Shown here: positions 26,047 to 58,321 of the stretch, piece after piece | Position numbering within the stretch: position 1 is the first letter of the stretch | How the letters are laid out: each line of letters starts with the position of its first letter | Assembly: GCA_963668625.2 (NCBI GenBank) | Contig: CAXXKA010000008.1 | Span: forward strand, 864,001-928,000 | Length of the DNA stretch: 64,000 nt | From: an uncultured candidate division Zixibacteria bacterium | GTDB lineage: Bacteria > Zixibacteria > MSB-5A5 > UBA10806 > 4484-95 | Reading direction: 5' to 3' | The notes under the pieces: generated by a model | Seen by the model: only the letters and a program-made list of their open reading frames with translations | What the model was told of the DNA's origin: nothing | Databases searched by the model: none | Made by a program: the position numbers and the translations under genes

Positions 26047-26051
26047 TTAAA

Positions 26052-26095
26052 AACCTCCTTTACTCTTTAGTTTTTAAACTCAAGTAAAGGAGGTT
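26052..26095 (-). promoter_or_regulatory. 13-bp perfect hairpin covering the nitroreductase RBS
   Basis: AACCTCCTTTACT (26052-64) and AGTAAAGGAGGTT (26083-95). Confidence 0.7.
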
Positions 26096-26110
26096 AAGTC
26101 TCGGTTTTAT

Positions 26111-55391: not shown

Positions 55392-56384
55392 TTATTTGAA
55401 AAAGTAACAGATACCGGCTTTGATATCGAAAATATATGAATATTGATGGCTACGCTCGCCATACGAATTATAGCCATAACCAACACTTACTATATCCAAA
55501 CTGACTCCCCCCTCGATACCCAGGTATTCCGATACCTTTTTCACGACTCCGAAACTTCCGGTAAGAAGAAACTTTGATTGCTTATCCGTGACTTTTTCGC
55601 TCCAGGTCTCATTGGTGCTAGTATTCTCAAAAAAAACCTCGAGTGAGGTAAGATGCTGTATAGCTCCAAATCCACCATAAAGGTACCACATGCTAAAGTC
55701 TTTGATGTTTTTATCGGTATGGCTGTAATACTCAACCGCGCATATATAACGAATCCCATGAAATTTAAGTTTGTGATCGGTAATTTCGTTATCGGGGAAG
55801 TTGGAATAAAGCTGAAGGTTGTCGTCGATACTCATTCCGGAGCGCGAGACGATAAACCGTAATGCCAAATGATGGTCGACTGCTAATCGGAAGTCACCCT
55901 CGAATCCTATTCCTGAGTTTATCCCCTCGTAGTAGTCACCTATCGGTATGCTATGAATCCCGGAAAACCTTATTGCGAAATTCCATATTTTCCATGGAGA
56001 TACCAGGTAACGATGAGGAATATCAGAATCGGGCACCGGAGTATTACTGCTGGTTAAATCAAAAAAAGGAATATCTTCCTCGCTTTTATCATCAATCTCC
56101 CCTGATCCGGATGAAACATCCCTTTTTTTCAAAACCTTATCAGTAATATCTTTATTATCGAGATCCAACACTTTCTCGATATGATCAAATCCTAGCTCAA
56201 TGATCCTGTCCTCGAGAGATATACGAATATTTTTATAGTAATTATTTGTATCATATTTAACATTTTCGAATTGCTCGCCATTCTTTAATATTATAGTACC
56301 CTGACTGGCCGCCAACGGGCTTAGTGATACAATAAATATAGCTAAGGTTAATACCAATTTTCCTATAGATTTAGAAATAGTCAT
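55392..56384 (-). CDS. Exported protein with probable outer-membrane beta-barrel C-domain
   Basis: Signal peptide; alternating beta strands; ends AGICYFFK. Confidence 0.6.
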   Translation of the reverse strand: MTISKSIGKLVLTLAIFIVSLSPLAASQGTIILKNGEQFENVKYDTNNYYKNIRISLEDRIIELGFDHIEKVLDLDNKDITDKVLKKRDVSSGSGEIDDKSEEDIPFFDLTSSNTPVPDSDIPHRYLVSPWKIWNFAIRFSGIHSIPIGDYYEGINSGIGFEGDFRLAVDHHLALRFIVSRSGMSIDDNLQLYSNFPDNEITDHKLKFHGIRYICAVEYYSHTDKNIKDFSMWYLYGGFGAIQHLTSLEVFFENTSTNETWSEKVTDKQSKFLLTGSFGVVKKVSEYLGIEGGVSLDIVSVGYGYNSYGERSHQYSYIFDIKAGICYFFK

Positions 56385-56422
56385 TAAAAACTCCTATGAT
56401 AAAAGTCTACTCCAAATTTCAG

Positions 56423-57436
56423 TTATCTGTTTGCTAACACAAAGTTAGGGAAATCTTCAAACACCCAATTATTTTTCAAGGTGTCATAGATTATTCCCAG
56501 TAATTTTCTGGCTGTGGCAATGATAGCCTTACCGCTGCCACGACGGTTTTTTATACGATTGTAATATTTACTCAAGTAATGGTTATATCGTATGGCAACA
56601 AGCGTACACTGCACCAGTGTAGTCCGACCAATCTTAGAACCACGCTTGGTAATCCGACCATGATGCTGAATCTCGTTTGAATTGGAAACTCGCGGCACTA
56701 CGCCAAAATATGAGGCCAATTTATCTTTGTCCGAAAAATCAGCAACATCACCAATTACCGAAAGCAACACTGTAGCTGATTTGCTGCCGATTCCTTTGAT
56801 GCTGGTCAGGTTCTTATGCCCGTTCAACTTGCGACCCTGATCCTCTATCTGTTTGTCCAGCTTTTTTATCCCCTCATTCAAACTGCGAATCTGATCAACC
56901 AATACCTCAAGCTCAACAGAAACAACCTCATCAAAATTCATCTTTAGAACCCGCTCCAAACTCTTGTTGCTGGAGTAGGCCTCCTTTTTACTCTTGATAC
57001 CATGATGATTGAGTATGTTGTGTATTTTATTCTTCAAAGCTGTACGTAACTTGACCAGCTTGTCCCGTGTCCCAACAAGTGAACTGATCTGCGCTTTATC
57101 TTTCGTCTTTAATCGGGCTTTCGGCAACATGTCTTTGCTCATAAAATAGGCTAAGTTCCTGGCATCGTTTTCATCCGTCTTACTGACTGATGATTTGATT
57201 ATCTCAAATTTGTTCGGATCGACGACAACAACTCGCTTGACCAAATGCGATATCTCATCAACGAAATAACGAGTGTTGCCAGTGGCCTCAACCGCTACAC
57301 AATCCGTCTTTTTTAATCCTCGTTTAAATTCCTTTAGATCCTTTAGCCGATACTCCTTGATCCTCTCCCGACCACCGGCTGTCAGGTAACACACGGTCAA
57401 ACTGTTTGTGTGAAGGTCTACTCCTAAGTACCTCAT
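56423..57436 (-). CDS. IS110 DEDD recombinase/transposase
   Basis: GVDLH, AVEATG, KTDENDA; IKGIG, YFGVVPRVSNS, AIIATARKL. Confidence 0.97.
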   Translation of the reverse strand: MRYLGVDLHTNSLTVCYLTAGGRERIKEYRLKDLKEFKRGLKKTDCVAVEATGNTRYFVDEISHLVKRVVVVDPNKFEIIKSSVSKTDENDARNLAYFMSKDMLPKARLKTKDKAQISSLVGTRDKLVKLRTALKNKIHNILNHHGIKSKKEAYSSNKSLERVLKMNFDEVVSVELEVLVDQIRSLNEGIKKLDKQIEDQGRKLNGHKNLTSIKGIGSKSATVLLSVIGDVADFSDKDKLASYFGVVPRVSNSNEIQHHGRITKRGSKIGRTTLVQCTLVAIRYNHYLSKYYNRIKNRRGSGKAIIATARKLLGIIYDTLKNNWVFEDFPNFVLANR

Positions 57437-57449
57437 CTTCTTGCTCCAT

Positions 57450-57658
57450 TCTATGGTTATCACTGGAGCAGACTCTCTGTCGGCGCCTACCAAACTCCTA
57501 TTCAAGGTCTTTGCCTTATGGTGGCAATTCGGTTACAGGTCTGATTAATCTCCTTTACGAGGTCTGGCCTCAAGCATTCAGTTCAGCCTATAACCTATCC
57601 GCTCCAGTTAGAAATTCATTACCGAAGCTCTAACACCAACAGAATAGATTAGCAAGAT
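57450..57658 (-). ncRNA. Putative bridge RNA in the IS110 left end
   Basis: Nested stems 57598-607/57463-72 and 57583-95/57531-44; two AGGAG-centred segments matching the junctions; ends approximate. Confidence 0.7.
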
Positions 57659-57688
57659 GCTTTTATCGTACCATCTCCTTTTTTTTAC

Positions 57689-57717
57689 ATAATATATTGC
57701 TATAAATGTTAAGGCAA
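57689..57717 (-). promoter_or_regulatory. Host sigma70-type promoter now reading into the IS110
   Basis: Minus strand TTGCCT-N17-TATTAT just upstream of the AAGGAG insertion site. Confidence 0.65.
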
Positions 57718-58063
57718 GGTGTTTTGCCGGTATTACACCGATACTGAAACCGGAGCTGAAACAAATATAATTCGATTACATTATCCTAATATAATGGAAA
57801 TAGTTAGCATATAGTATCAGATTAATATGCTAATGCGTTGATATAGTTTACTTAAGCAGGTGCTGAGAGAATATTAGATTGGGTGCAATGAGGTGTAACC
57901 GATAGTAAAGCTTATCGTATAGAGCAAGAAAACTTTACTCTTTTTTCTTTTTTAAGTGAAAAGTACTAATTTTTCGCCGATTAATTAAATGATCAATAAA
58001 TTTTAGAAACAAAATACCGTTAGCAATCGTTATGGCAAATTAACTTGTTAAGGAGGTTTGAAT

Positions 58064-58321
58064 ATGCCGAGCAAAACTGCTACAACCAAGAAGGCAGCTA
58101 CTAGAAAAAAAGCTACCTCTACTCGGAAAAAAACAACAACCTCAGCTAAAAAGAATACCAAAGACCAGAGGATGGTTTTAGGTAATCCCGGCGAATTAAA
58201 TACCAAAATCCGCCAGAAGGCTTACGAGATGTACCAGCAGCGCGGTGGATGGCATGGCGCTGATATGGAAGATTGGTTGAAAGCCGAGCGAGAGGTTAAA
58301 AGAACGCTGACTACAGCATAA
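58064..58321 (+). CDS. DUF2934 protein with Lys/Thr/Ala-rich basic N-tail
   Basis: IRQKAYEMYQQRG..HGADMEDWLKAERE; AAGGAGGT RBS. Confidence 0.88.
   Translation: MPSKTATTKKAATRKKATSTRKKTTTSAKKNTKDQRMVLGNPGELNTKIRQKAYEMYQQRGGWHGADMEDWLKAEREVKRTLTTA

What the first reader, a model, noticed from the sequence alone, without database searches (positions are those of the whole stretch)
57450..57658. Bridge-RNA-like leader with two guide segments matching the two junctions
Seen: an outer stem CTGGAGCGGA/TCTGCTCCAG encloses the stem GGTTATAGGCTGA/TCAGACCTGTAACC, which has a large internal loop and a GAGG/CCTC cap. The loop segment AAAGGAGAT (57548-56) is identical to the left junction (57673-81), and ATAGGAGTTT (57492-501) is identical to the right junction (56388-97). 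Established: IS110 bridge RNAs carry target- and donor-binding loops. Inference: these are the guides, and their match to post-recombination hybrid junctions suggests extended handshake-type pairing or an architecture different from IS621. GTAAAGGAG also matches the nitroreductase SD near 26055-63, a predicted further target.
Basis: partly seen in the sequence, partly recalled or inferred. Interest (0 to 1): 0.76.

Follow-up and report, generated by a model that had tools for sequence, protein, structure and literature searches.

The report
Bridge RNA of an RBS-targeting insertion sequence
The leader is the guide ("bridge") RNA of an IS110-family insertion sequence that aims itself at ribosome-binding sites and rebuilds them, a known kind of system with its guides arranged differently from the textbook IS621 case.

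Summary
Window 56391-57678 (minus strand) is a 1,284-bp IS110-family element present in 11 identical copies in this genome. Every copy sits inside a Shine-Dalgarno sequence (..AAGGAG) 4-7 nt before an ATG.

Its 5' leader folds into a covariation-supported RNA: an outer stem enclosing two similar modules. The 3' loop strand of module 1 (AAAGGAGAU) equals 3 nt of left flank + GGAG core + the first 2 nt of the element. That of module 2 (AUAGGAG+UU) equals the last 3 nt of the element + core + up to 2 nt of right flank.

Across 80 homologous loci, 52-64% identical in the best tblastn segment, exactly these positions track the flanks. Neighbouring positions do not.

The match to "hybrid" junctions is the known 2-nt handshake guide of bridge RNAs, not an extended one.

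The architecture does differ from IS621, which I checked directly in E. coli W. Here the 3'-side guides read the opposite strand (the order reported for IS1111-type seekRNAs). Subterminal inverted repeats are present, the RNA lies upstream of the transposase, and I found no 5'-side guide.

RBS targeting is already reported for IS900. The nitroreductase site is one of about 490 free AAAGGAG sites.

Verdict: real, a new variant of a known kind, moderate interest. No RNA or biochemical data exist.

The parts
56391..57678 (-). IS110-family insertion sequence with both GGAG core copies. The body is 56395-57674 (1,280 bp); with one core copy it is 1,284 bp.
   Evidence: There are 11 copies at 100% identity in the genome. 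Their shared block runs from AAGGAG to ..TCATAGGAG. A repeat contig 56391-57680 has depth 51.1 against 2.8-4.6 in the flanks.
56423..57436 (-). Transposase/recombinase gene, 337 aa.
   Evidence: Pfam Transposase_20 at 5.4e-22 and DEDD_Tnp_IS110 at 5.7e-13. It is 26% identical to the IS621 transposase at E 3e-16, with D7, E50, D88 and D91 aligned to the IS621 DEDD residues. S253 sits in a G-x-x-P-x-x-x-x-S register, read from the sequence.
57463..57607 (-). Structured core of the bridge RNA. The outer stem is 57598-57607 with 57463-57472 and encloses two modules.
   Evidence: Fold with z = -5.1. The consensus structure has 37 pairs, with 96.7% of cells paired against 30-46% when partners are slid. 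Sixteen pairs show compensatory changes and 0 of 500 shuffles reach the observed values. G-U pairs fit only the minus strand.
57531..57595 (-). Module 1, the target-binding loop. It comprises the stem 57583-57595 with 57531-57544, a 5' loop at 57572-57582, a cap hairpin at 57559-57571 and a 3' loop at 57545-57558.
   Evidence: Helices 2-4 of the consensus structure.
57548..57556 (-). Guide 1, AAAGGAGAU: 3 nt of left target, the 4-nt core and a 2-nt handshake that matches the first two bases of the element.
   Evidence: Identical to the left junction at 57673-57681. It tracks the flank at exactly these 9 positions and at no neighbouring position. The Tardibacter plasmid copy adds a further case, GAAGGAGCT in both places.
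57485..57525 (-). Module 2, the donor-binding loop. It comprises the stem 57519-57525 with 57485-57492, a hairpin at 57504-57517 and a 3' strand carrying guide 2. The 5' loop is almost absent (2 nt).
   Evidence: Helices 5-6 of the consensus structure.
57493..57501 (-). Guide 2, AUAGGAG (57495-57501), plus the handshake dinucleotide UU (57493-57494).
   Evidence: Identical to the right junction. Position -1 changes A/G together with the element's last base in 75 of 75 pairs. The handshake matches the right flank weakly family-wide, but the base after GGAG is T in 9 of 11 copies here against 86 of 447 free sites.
57675..57681 (-). Left junction on the target side: AAA (57679-57681) plus the GGAG core copy (57675-57678). 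This is the host gene's original Shine-Dalgarno sequence.
56389..56394 (-). Right core copy GGAG (56391-56394) plus the first two right-flank bases. Together with the element's last bases it restores an AGGAG Shine-Dalgarno sequence 6 nt before the ATG of ORF 55392-56384.
   Evidence: An ATG lies 4-9 nt after GGAG at 68 of 76 unique right junctions in the family.
57660..57667 (-). Left subterminal inverted repeat, GATAAAAG, at element positions 8-15.
   Evidence: It pairs with 56398-56405. The longest own-end inverted repeat averages 8.6 nt against 5.7 nt for mismatched end pairs, over 44 distinct end pairs. The window's own copies were dropped from that count by a length filter. The near-identical ends of L017 give 9 nt.
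56398..56405 (-). Right subterminal inverted repeat, CTTTTATC.
   Evidence: sequence read.
56405..56413 (-). Right-end motif GGAGTAGAC. It equals the family consensus of the 5' arm of the RNA's outer stem. It overlaps a -35-like TAGACT at 56404-56409.
   Evidence: Its function is not established.
57665..57670 (-). -10-like TACGAT in the left end. It would lie 17 nt from the right-end TAGACT once the element is circular.
   Evidence: In 40 of 51 distinct end pairs the best promoter-like match of the in-silico circle junction sits in this register. Scores were 7-11 of 12 over all 51 pairs. Scores alone are not above shuffles, where 436 of 1020 reach 8 or more. This is an inference by analogy with IS621 and ISEc21.
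57689..57717 (-). Host promoter-like site (TTGCCT, 17 nt, TATTAT) just upstream of the left junction. It could read into the element.
   Evidence: A consensus scan found 4 sites in the region against 3.3 expected. This is weak evidence.

Best explanation
The leader encodes the bridge RNA (also called seekRNA) of an IS110-family insertion sequence.

Shown by sequence and comparison:
- The RNA has an outer stem enclosing two similar modules.
- Each module presents, on the 3' strand of its loop, one guide of 3 nt + GGAG + 2 nt.
- Guide 1 (AAAGGAG) has the sequence of the RNA-sense strand of the target, so it would pair with the opposite strand of a Shine-Dalgarno site.
- Guide 2 (AUAGGAG) does the same for the element's right end.
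- The two bases after each core are handshake positions. Those of guide 1 (AU) equal the first two bases of the element. Those of guide 2 (UU) can equal the first two bases of the right flank.

Inferred by analogy with IS621:
- The element excises as a circle.
- A promoter is formed across the joined ends and drives the RNA.
- Recombinase dimers on the two modules bring the circle junction and the target together.
- Strands are exchanged within or next to GGAG.
- The handshake bases then pair with the newly joined non-cognate DNA and pull the reaction forward.

Because the element carries its own ..AGGAG at its right end, the downstream gene keeps a ribosome-binding site at the same spacing. 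The element always faces the same way as that gene.

Relative to IS621, the guides read the other strand with respect to the RNA and transposase genes, as reported for IS1111-type elements. Only about 7 target bases are specified.
For: Family membership: the two Pfam domains of IS110 transposases are present.

Copies and target:
- There are 11 identical copies, each in ..AAGGAG, 4-7 nt before an ATG and in the gene's orientation.
- 11 of 11 occupied sites are Shine-Dalgarno-like against 458 of 1563 candidate AAGGAG sites (P 1.3e-6).
- 68 of 76 unique right junctions of homologues have an ATG 4-9 nt after GGAG.

RNA structure:
- The fold has z = -5.1.
- The 37-pair consensus has 96.7% of cells paired. 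Sixteen pairs show compensatory change and 0 of 500 shuffles reach the observed values.

Guide-to-junction tracking:
- Guide 1 matches at -3 (56 of 68), -2 (66 of 68), -1 (68 of 68) and +2 (68 of 68). At each of these, 0 of 2000 shuffles reach the observed count.
- Guide 1 does not match at -4 (15 of 68) or +3 (0 of 68).
- Guide 2 matches at -1 in 75 of 75.
- The cross-wise controls, each guide against the wrong junction, show no core-adjacent run of matches. Two isolated positions gave 6 and 8 of 2000 shuffles.
- A plasmid copy in a cultured Tardibacter carries GAAGGAGCT in both the guide and the junction.

Literature:
- A 2-nt handshake and its forward-driving role are described for IS621 (section read).
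- The reversed order of strand matches in IS1111-type seekRNAs is described in Siddiquee 2024 (sections read).
- Donor-binding bases in a multiloop are noted for many IS1111 elements (passage read).

Subterminal inverted repeats are 8-9 nt here, with an own-pair mean of 8.6 nt against 5.7 nt for mismatched pairs.
Against: - There are no RNA data. No listed public run holding this DNA is on record as RNA, so expression, ends and protein binding of the RNA are untested.
- No empty site or circle junction was recovered. The crossover point within GGAG and the excised form are therefore inferred.
- The module-2 handshake is weak family-wide: 32 of 75 against 25.6 expected (109 of 2000 shuffles as high), and 27 of 75 against 22.1 (179 of 2000).
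- The absence of 5'-side guides is negative evidence from 69 rows, against a GC-driven background mutual information of about 0.35-0.46.
- Donor-side covariation is confounded by shared descent.
- The junction-promoter scores are not above shuffles.
- Placement of the transposase in the IS1111 or the IS110 group was not tested by phylogeny. It is about 26% identical to both IS4321 and IS621.
Confidence: 0.88

Rival explanations
1. It is a canonical IS621-style bridge RNA in which each loop reads both DNA strands. The 5'-side guides exist, but I missed them because they are short, degenerate or lie outside the aligned region.
For: Module 1 has an 11-12-nt 5' loop (57572-57582) of variable sequence, in the place where IS1111 seekRNAs and IS621 carry a second guide. 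IS4321 shows both kinds of match around a hairpin (my reading of the sequence). The 3' arm of the outer stem contains CUCC, the complement of the core. It is also complementary to a right-end motif: 16 of 45 elements pair 9 of 9 with their own end against 415 of 3000 mismatched pairings.
Against: The 11 copies share one RNA, yet their right flanks differ at every position beyond the first, and their left flanks differ beyond -3. No further target base is therefore required. No RNA column tracks any right-flank position above background. The 5' loop matches its own flanks no better than those of other elements: means 4.09 against 3.79 and 3.91. CUCC occurs in the leader only inside the outer stem. 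Module 2 has only a 2-nt 5' loop.
Confidence: 0.15
2. The internal copies of the junction sequences act as DNA, not RNA. They would be subterminal repeats bound by the transposase, and the fold would be incidental.
For: IS1111-type elements do have subterminal repeats, and this family has them. A right-end motif repeats a leader sequence.
Against: The segments sit in loop strands of a structure with 16 compensatory pairs and strand-specific G-U pairs. Guide-1 positions -3 to -1 follow the host flank, which is not part of the element. A protein site inside the element has no reason to follow the host flank.
Confidence: 0.04
3. The GGAG-containing segments are ordinary ribosome-binding or translational-control elements of the transposase leader. 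The junction matches would arise because Shine-Dalgarno-like strings are common.
For: Both segments contain AGGAG. The target is itself a Shine-Dalgarno sequence. AAAGGAG occurs 499 times in the genome.
Against: No start codon follows either segment at a usable distance. The transposase has its own GGAG 8 nt before its ATG. The exact 9- and 10-mers are rare. Non-core positions track the flanks.
Confidence: 0.03

Closest known systems
IS621 bridge RNA (IS110 group; Durrant 2024, Hiraizumi 2024)
   Same: - A DEDD plus Ser recombinase with the same two Pfam domains.
- The guide RNA lies in the left end, upstream of the gene.
- Two pseudo-symmetric modules, the first for the target and the second for the donor.
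- The core is included in the guides.
- A 2-nt handshake lies directly 3' of the core-pairing part of each 3'-side guide.
- A promoter is expected across the joined ends.
   Different: In E. coli W I read the IS621 arrangement directly:
- The 5'-side guides ATCGGGCCT and ACAGTATC have the sense of left target + core and left donor + core.
- The 3'-side guide GCGTAGAT is the reverse complement of donor AT + CT + target ACGC.

Here the 3'-side guides have the sense sequence, so they read the other strand, and their handshake partners are the bases 3' of the core. No 5'-side guide was found. The core is up to 4 nt (GGAG) rather than CT. An outer stem encloses both modules. About 7 target bases are specified against 11 or more.
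IS1111-group seekRNAs / bridge RNAs (ISEc11, ISPa11, ISKpn4, IS4321; Siddiquee 2024)
   Same: - The segment that pairs with the bottom strand is the 3' one.
- Subterminal inverted repeats of 7-17 bp.
- Donor-binding bases inside a multiloop.
- Transposase size of 330-350 aa.
- The IS4321 ends ATGGTCAC.. and ..GTGACCAT resemble the ends here.
   Different: - The RNA is upstream of the transposase gene, whereas almost all IS1111 members have it downstream. ISMtsp17 is a named exception.
- No top-strand match 5' of the hairpin was found here.
- Transposase identity to IS4321 is only about 26%.
- No phylogeny was run.
IS900 of Mycobacterium avium subsp. paratuberculosis (IS110 family)
   Same: It is site-specific for a ribosome-binding site next to a start codon. 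The reported target motif is CATGNNNNNNTCTCCTT, whose reverse complement reads AAGGAGA, six bases, then CATG (passage read). Few of its insertions disrupt genes.
   Different: Its transposase gene is 1,200 bp (about 400 aa) against 337 aa here. A host-dependent ORF (hed) lies on the strand opposite the transposase, so, from recall, it faces the other way relative to the target gene. I did not examine its RNA guides.
Survey of 32,190 predicted bridge RNAs (bioRxiv 10.64898/2026.10.21.760802)
   Same: It reports 86 covariance models, many unlike IS621, and total programmable nucleotides from 12 to 40 (median 25) (section read). A system with 14-18 guide bases falls inside that range.
   Different: The section I read describes the long-guide end of the range. 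It names no Shine-Dalgarno-targeting or short-guide family. Its supplementary material could not be seen and may list this family.

Membership tests
IS110 family (DEDD transposases) | N-terminal DEDD_Tnp_IS110 (PF01548) plus C-terminal Transposase_20 (PF02371) | tested here: met
   49.4 bits against a cut-off of 29, and 78.4 bits against a cut-off of 21.3.
IS110 family (DEDD transposases) | Catalytic D, E, D, D and the Ser of the G--P----S motif | tested here: met
   D7, E50, D88 and D91 align with the IS621 DEDD residues. G245-P248-S253 fits the motif quoted without a gap. In the BLAST alignment a 1-residue gap shifts the Ser, so this part is read by eye.
IS110 family (DEDD transposases) | Site-specific insertion without terminal inverted repeats or a target duplication beyond the shared core | tested here: met
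   All 11 copies lie between ..AAGGAG and AGGAG.., with nothing else duplicated.
Bridge RNA / seekRNA | A structured non-coding RNA in the long non-coding end next to the transposase gene | tested here: met
   Transcription itself was not testable.
Bridge RNA / seekRNA | Separate loop segments that track the target flank and the element's own ends, both including the core | tested here: met
   at 68 and 75 unique guide/junction pairs.
Bridge RNA / seekRNA | A handshake dinucleotide that pairs with the non-cognate DNA after exchange | tested here: met
   Module 1: 67 of 68 and 68 of 68, with T/C changing together. Module 2: 32 of 75 and 27 of 75, only weakly above expectation.
Bridge RNA / seekRNA | The RNA binds the recombinase and is needed for recombination | not testable with these tools
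   No RNA run was listed.
IS621-type architecture (IS110 group) | The 5' loop strand pairs with the bottom strand (8-9 nt) and the 3' loop strand with the top strand (4-7 nt) of each DNA | tested here: not met
   Here the 3' strands are identical to the RNA-sense strand. No 5'-side guide was found. The IS621 arrangement was verified and is stated.
IS621-type architecture (IS110 group) | A match to a curated RNA family model | tested here: inconclusive
   There was no Rfam 15 hit at E up to 1. The IS621 leader itself also hits no bridge-RNA family, only naRNA4 and sroD in its flank. The library therefore cannot decide this.
IS1111 group | Subterminal inverted repeats of 7-17 bp | tested here: met
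   GATAAAAG and CTTTTATC in the window. Across 44 distinct end pairs the repeat is 5-14 nt, with an own-pair mean of 8.6 against 5.7 for mismatched pairs.
IS1111 group | The long non-coding region and guide RNA lie downstream of the transposase gene | tested here: not met
   The leader is 238 nt upstream of the ATG. Only 28 nt lie between the stop codon and the right core.
IS1111 group | The top-strand match lies 5' of the bottom-strand match in the RNA | tested here: inconclusive
   The bottom-strand-pairing guide is on the 3' side as required. No top-strand match was detected 5' of it.
IS1111 group | The transposase clusters with IS1111 members in a phylogeny | not tested
   Only pairwise figures are available: about 26% to IS4321, 26% to IS621 and 31% to an ISHvo10-family gene.

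The most novel reading that the evidence does not exclude
This may be a naturally minimal bridge system. Each loop would carry a single guide (3 nt + 4-nt core + 2-nt handshake), and both guides would read the same DNA strand. The missing donor contact would be supplied by a third RNA-DNA match, between the outer-stem arm and the right-end motif GGAGTAGAC. The element would live in 5' untranslated regions by hitting ribosome-binding sites, rebuilding them, and borrowing the host promoter to express its RNA and recombinase.
Probability: 0.25. Interest if true: 0.6.

Novelty: new variant of a known kind. Interest (0 to 1): 0.42.

Why it matters
Bridge RNAs are under active development as programmable recombination tools. 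Almost all mechanistic knowledge comes from IS621 and a few IS1111 members.

This family is widespread. Relatives appeared in metagenome-assembled genomes labelled Acidobacteriota, Omnitrophota, Spirochaetota, Planctomycetota, Nitrospira and Alphaproteobacteria, and on one conjugative plasmid.

It combines features of both subgroups:
- The RNA lies upstream, as in IS110-type elements.
- Strand polarity and subterminal repeats are as in IS1111-type elements.
- Guides are very short.

It therefore offers a natural test of three questions. Which features of the IS621 model are essential? Does a loop need two guides? How does the handshake set direction?

Biologically, it shows how a site-specific element can reach 11 copies in front of genes with little damage. 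It targets the ribosome-binding site and puts one back.

If the short-guide reading is wrong, this is simply one more predicted bridge RNA.

Tried and rejected
Tried without a useful result:
- Rfam search of 55800-58300: no hit at E up to 1. This is uninformative, because the IS621 leader hits no bridge-RNA family either.
- Public runs: no RNA holder was listed.
- Contigs of 4 runs laid on 56100-58000 show the repeat contig and the many flanks. They show no contig joining the two flanks and no end-to-end joint. Contigs cannot show RNA ends.
- Empty site: the right-flank gene was found in 1 of the 30 related genomes searched besides G000 itself, at 69% identity over 134 nt. That is too distant to show the uninterrupted site.
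- Mutual information between 263 RNA alignment columns and 28 target-flank positions, over 69 rows. Only guide-1 positions -3 and -1 stood out. Everything else lay in a background of about 0.35-0.46, which I attribute to host base composition.
- Test of the module-1 5' loop as a guide, in sense and antisense, against target and donor: no excess over mismatched pairs. One 9-nt sense match in L083 turned out to lie mostly in the conserved stem arm, because my pattern mis-registered that row.
- The idea that ACCAU in module 2 guides the left-end terminus ATGGT was rejected. It pairs within a stem and does not follow the ATGAT and ATGAG variants (reading).
- The idea of a conserved three-codon mini-ORF at the left end was rejected, because several members begin ACG...
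- Junction-promoter scores are not above shuffles. Only the register is constant.
- Subgroup assignment by BLAST identity is undecided. I built no tree, because I held only one named IS110-group reference.
- Rows dropped. L084 was removed because its guide 1 was mis-located by my pattern. Loci without both a recognisable guide and a junction were skipped: 84 of 91 loci entered, and 69 rows entered. The window's own 11 copies were dropped by a length filter.
- Paper searches for prior description. 'bridge RNA' + IS110 + Shine-Dalgarno gave 1 paper. IS1111 + Shine-Dalgarno gave 4 papers, none on this.
Full report
WHAT IS THERE

The finding lies in the 5' leader of a gene on the minus strand (57436-56423, 337 aa). 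That gene carries both Pfam domains of IS110-family transposases.

The genome (4.30 Mb, 10 contigs) holds 11 copies at 100% identity. Aligning their ends shows that the shared block runs from ..AAGGAG through the element to ..TTTTATCATAGGAG. The element is therefore 1,280 bp (56395-57674) plus one copy of a GGAG core that appears at both junctions.

Assembly-graph contigs of public runs show the same unit, 56391-57680, at depth 51.1 against 2.8-4.6 in the flanks.

CHECK OF THE OBSERVATION

- AAAGGAGAT occurs 3 times in the window (0.79 expected).
- ATAGGAGTTT occurs twice (0.14 expected; 0 of 100 shuffles reach 2).

I aligned 35 leaders: the window plus 34 of the 80 homologous loci found in genome contigs. 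The 34 were chosen for typical length out of 60 distinct sequences. The consensus has 37 pairs in 6 helices:
- 96.7% of cells are paired, against 30-46% when the partners are slid by 1-3 columns.
- 16 pairs show changes on both sides.
- 0 of 500 shuffles reach any of the five measures.

The G-U pairs fit only the minus strand, so the RNA has the sense of the transposase gene.

One correction to the anatomy. The second segment is not in the multiloop as free sequence. It is the 3' strand of a second, smaller module: a stem CACCA/UGGUG-like, a hairpin AAGG..CCUU, and almost no 5' loop. This module resembles the first.

ARE THE SEGMENTS GUIDES?

The 80 homologous loci are 52-64% identical in the best tblastn segment and come from many phyla. 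Nearly all end ..CAT(A/G)GGAG and begin GGAGA(T/C)G...

I compared each guide with its own junction over unique guide/junction pairs and shuffled the pairing 2000 times.

Guide 1 against the left junction, 68 pairs:

| Position | Identical | Expected | Shuffles as high |
|---|---|---|---|
| -3 | 56 of 68 | 33.9 | 0 of 2000 |
| -2 | 66 of 68 | 60.4 | 0 of 2000 |
| -1 | 68 of 68 | 58.6 | 0 of 2000 |
| +1 | 67 of 68 | flank base invariant (A) | - |
| +2 | 68 of 68 (T/C change together) | 55.5 | 0 of 2000 |

There is no agreement at -4 (15 of 68), -5 (4 of 68) or +3 (0 of 68).

Guide 2 against the right junction, 75 pairs:
- Positions -3 and -2 are invariant.
- Position -1 is identical in 75 of 75, with A/G changing together (52.2 expected; 0 of 2000).
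- Position +1 matches in 32 of 75 (25.6 expected; 109 of 2000 as high).
- Position +2 matches in 27 of 75 (22.1 expected; 179 of 2000 as high).
- Position +3 is an invariant U that pairs in the module-2 stem.

The cross-wise controls, each guide against the wrong junction, show no core-adjacent run of matches. Two isolated positions gave 6 and 8 of 2000 shuffles.

A copy on a conjugative plasmid of a cultured Tardibacter has GAAGGAGCT in both the guide and the junction. This adds a change at +1.

TARGET

- All 11 copies sit in ..AAGGAG followed after 4-7 nt by ATG, in the orientation of that gene.
- Family-wide, 68 of 76 unique right junctions have an ATG 4-9 nt after GGAG.
- In this genome 458 of 1563 candidate AAGGAG sites look like ribosome-binding sites. 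The chance that all 11 occupied sites do is 1.3e-6. This could reflect selection after insertion as well as targeting.
- The flanks of the 11 copies vary at every position beyond -3 and beyond +1, although the RNA is identical. No further target base is therefore required.
- The base after GGAG is T in 9 of 11 copies against 86 of 447 free sites (P 1.4e-5). That fits the U at the first handshake position of guide 2. The family-wide signal is weak, so I treat it as possible only.
- Because the right end supplies ..AGGAG, the downstream gene keeps a ribosome-binding site at its old spacing.
- No terminator-like site lies on the minus strand inside the element. A weak host promoter-like site lies just upstream. 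Read-through in both directions of dependence is plausible but not shown.

COMPARISON WITH IS621

To avoid relying on memory, I fetched IS621 from E. coli W. The record annotates an 'IS110-like element IS621 family transposase'. There:
- The left junction reads ATCAGGC-CT-TGTATT.
- The right junction reads ACAGTAT-CT-ACG...
- The 5' strand of the first loop is ATCGGGCCT, the sense of left target + core.
- The 5' strand of the second loop is ACAGTATC.
- The 3' strand GCGTAGAT is the reverse complement of AT-CT-ACGC, that is donor handshake + core + right target.

This agrees with the papers. Passages state that the 5' side pairs with the bottom strand and the 3' side with the top strand. The section read states that positions 81-82 and 166-167 are handshake guides that pair with the non-cognate DNA after exchange and promote it.

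In the present family the 3'-side guides plus handshake have the sense sequence of the junctions. They would therefore pair with the strand antisense to the RNA gene. Seen from the paired strand, the layout is the same as in IS621: flank, then core, then a 2-nt handshake partner from the other DNA. The body of the element is inverted relative to that geometry.

The 'hybrid junction' match is thus the ordinary handshake. It is exact for the target loop.

COMPARISON WITH IS1111-TYPE ELEMENTS

- Durrant et al. note donor-binding bases in a multiloop in many IS1111 members, and define the group by subterminal inverted repeats of 7-17 bp (passages).
- This family has the IS1111 polarity for the guide I can see. 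It also has an outer stem that makes a multiloop.
- It has subterminal repeats that change together between ends. The own-pair mean is 8.6 nt against 5.7 nt for mismatched pairs, over 44 distinct end pairs. The window has GATAAAAG and CTTTTATC.
- Its RNA nevertheless lies upstream. Those authors found that in only a few IS1111-like elements, with ISMtsp17 named.
- Pairwise identity does not decide the subgroup: about 26% to IS4321, 26% to IS621, 31% to an ISHvo10-family gene. I ran no phylogeny.

WHAT I COULD NOT FIND

I found no second guide per loop.
- The 11-12-nt 5' loop of module 1 is variable. It tracks no flank position and matches its own flanks no better than others'.
- Module 2 has a 2-nt 5' loop.
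- The complement of the core, CUCC, occurs in the leader only in the 3' arm of the outer stem.

That arm is complementary to a right-end motif, GGAGTAGAC at 56405-56413, which equals the consensus 5' arm.
- 16 of 45 distinct elements pair 9 of 9 with their own right end, against 415 of 3000 mismatched pairings. Related elements are not independent.
- Several lineage-specific changes appear in the arms and the motif together.

I cannot say whether this is a third RNA-DNA contact, a protein site or a relic.

PROMOTER ACROSS THE JOINED ENDS

In 40 of 51 distinct end pairs, the best sigma-70-like match of the in-silico circle junction places the -35 in the right end and the -10 at left-end positions 5-10, with a 16-18-nt spacer. 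In the window these are TAGACT, 17 nt, TACGAT.

The scores are no better than in shuffles. This rests on the analogy with IS621 and ISEc21.

PRIOR ART AND NOVELTY

- Bridge RNAs, handshake guides and the reversed IS1111 order are all published.
- Targeting of ribosome-binding sites within the IS110 family is known for IS900, whose reported motif is CATGNNNNNNTCTCCTT (passage read).
- A 2026 preprint predicts 32,190 bridge RNAs with 86 models and 12-40 programmable bases (section read).
- My searches found no description of this particular family. Supplements are closed and may contain it.

I therefore file it as a new variant of a known kind. It combines IS1111-like polarity and repeats with an upstream RNA and the shortest kind of guides.

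THE SIDE CLAIM

GTAAAGGAG is at 26055-26063 on the minus strand. It lies 8 nt before the ATG of a nitroreductase-family gene.
- G and T at -5 and -4 are not read by the guide.
- The genome has 490 free AAAGGAG sites. Of these, 154 look like ribosome-binding sites and 11 are the elements' own guide-1 copies.
- The base after GGAG at this site is G, seen at none of the 11 occupied sites.

It is a possible target, not a marked one.

LIMITS

Everything above is comparative sequence analysis. There are no RNA data, no empty site and no circle junction. The crossover position, the order of strand cleavage and the role of the handshake are inferred from IS621.

Noticed in passing
window 56405-56413 (-), and the right ends of L013-L091: A right-end motif, GGAGTAGAC, equals the consensus 5' arm of the RNA's outer stem and is complementary to its 3' arm. 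Several lineage-specific changes occur in the arms and the motif together. In six elements it sits 19-22 nt from the core with a separate TTGACT or TTGACA nearer the end, so it is not merely a -35 box.
   Followed up: partly
window 26047-26100: The nitroreductase gene's ribosome-binding site (26055-26063, minus strand) is one arm of a 13-bp perfect inverted repeat, with the other arm at about 26083-26095. A hairpin there could hide the site in the mRNA, or could serve as a terminator for the neighbouring gene.
   Followed up: no
L025, right end (about 50-75 nt after the stop codon): The last 12 bases of the element plus GGAG occur twice in tandem before the host ATG. This looks like a leftover right end from an earlier insertion or excision at the same site.
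   Followed up: no
L069, L075, L077, L079 (Acidobacteriaceae metagenome-assembled genomes): A sub-lineage has guide 1 ACACGGAGAU and inserts at CACGGAG followed by (A/G)CAC(G/C)GAG. No start codon follows within the 12 nt held in 4 of 4 cases. This suggests natural retargeting from ribosome-binding sites to a repeated non-coding sequence.
   Followed up: partly
L036-L058 (one Robiginitomaculum chromosome), L061-L074 (one Spirochaetota genome): Other genomes also carry many copies of their own family member: at least 10 and 7 loci were returned respectively. Each copy sits in front of a different gene's ATG.
   Followed up: partly
window 57437-57505 (-): the ORF listing extends the transposase frame to a TTG at 57505, giving 360 aa and running through guide 2. 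Homologues start at the MRY.. methionine (57436), so the extension is probably not translated.
   Followed up: partly
run X5 laid on window 56389-57680: A wetland-metagenome contig of 1,587 nt shares only the two ends and short inner pieces with this element. This suggests a diverged relative with the same termini in another organism.
   Followed up: no
L100 539-597 (E. coli W, left flank of IS621): The REP sequence targeted by IS621 scores as Rfam naRNA4 at 47.2 bits, below the gathering score of 59.5. The IS621 bridge RNA itself matches no Rfam 15 family.
   Followed up: no
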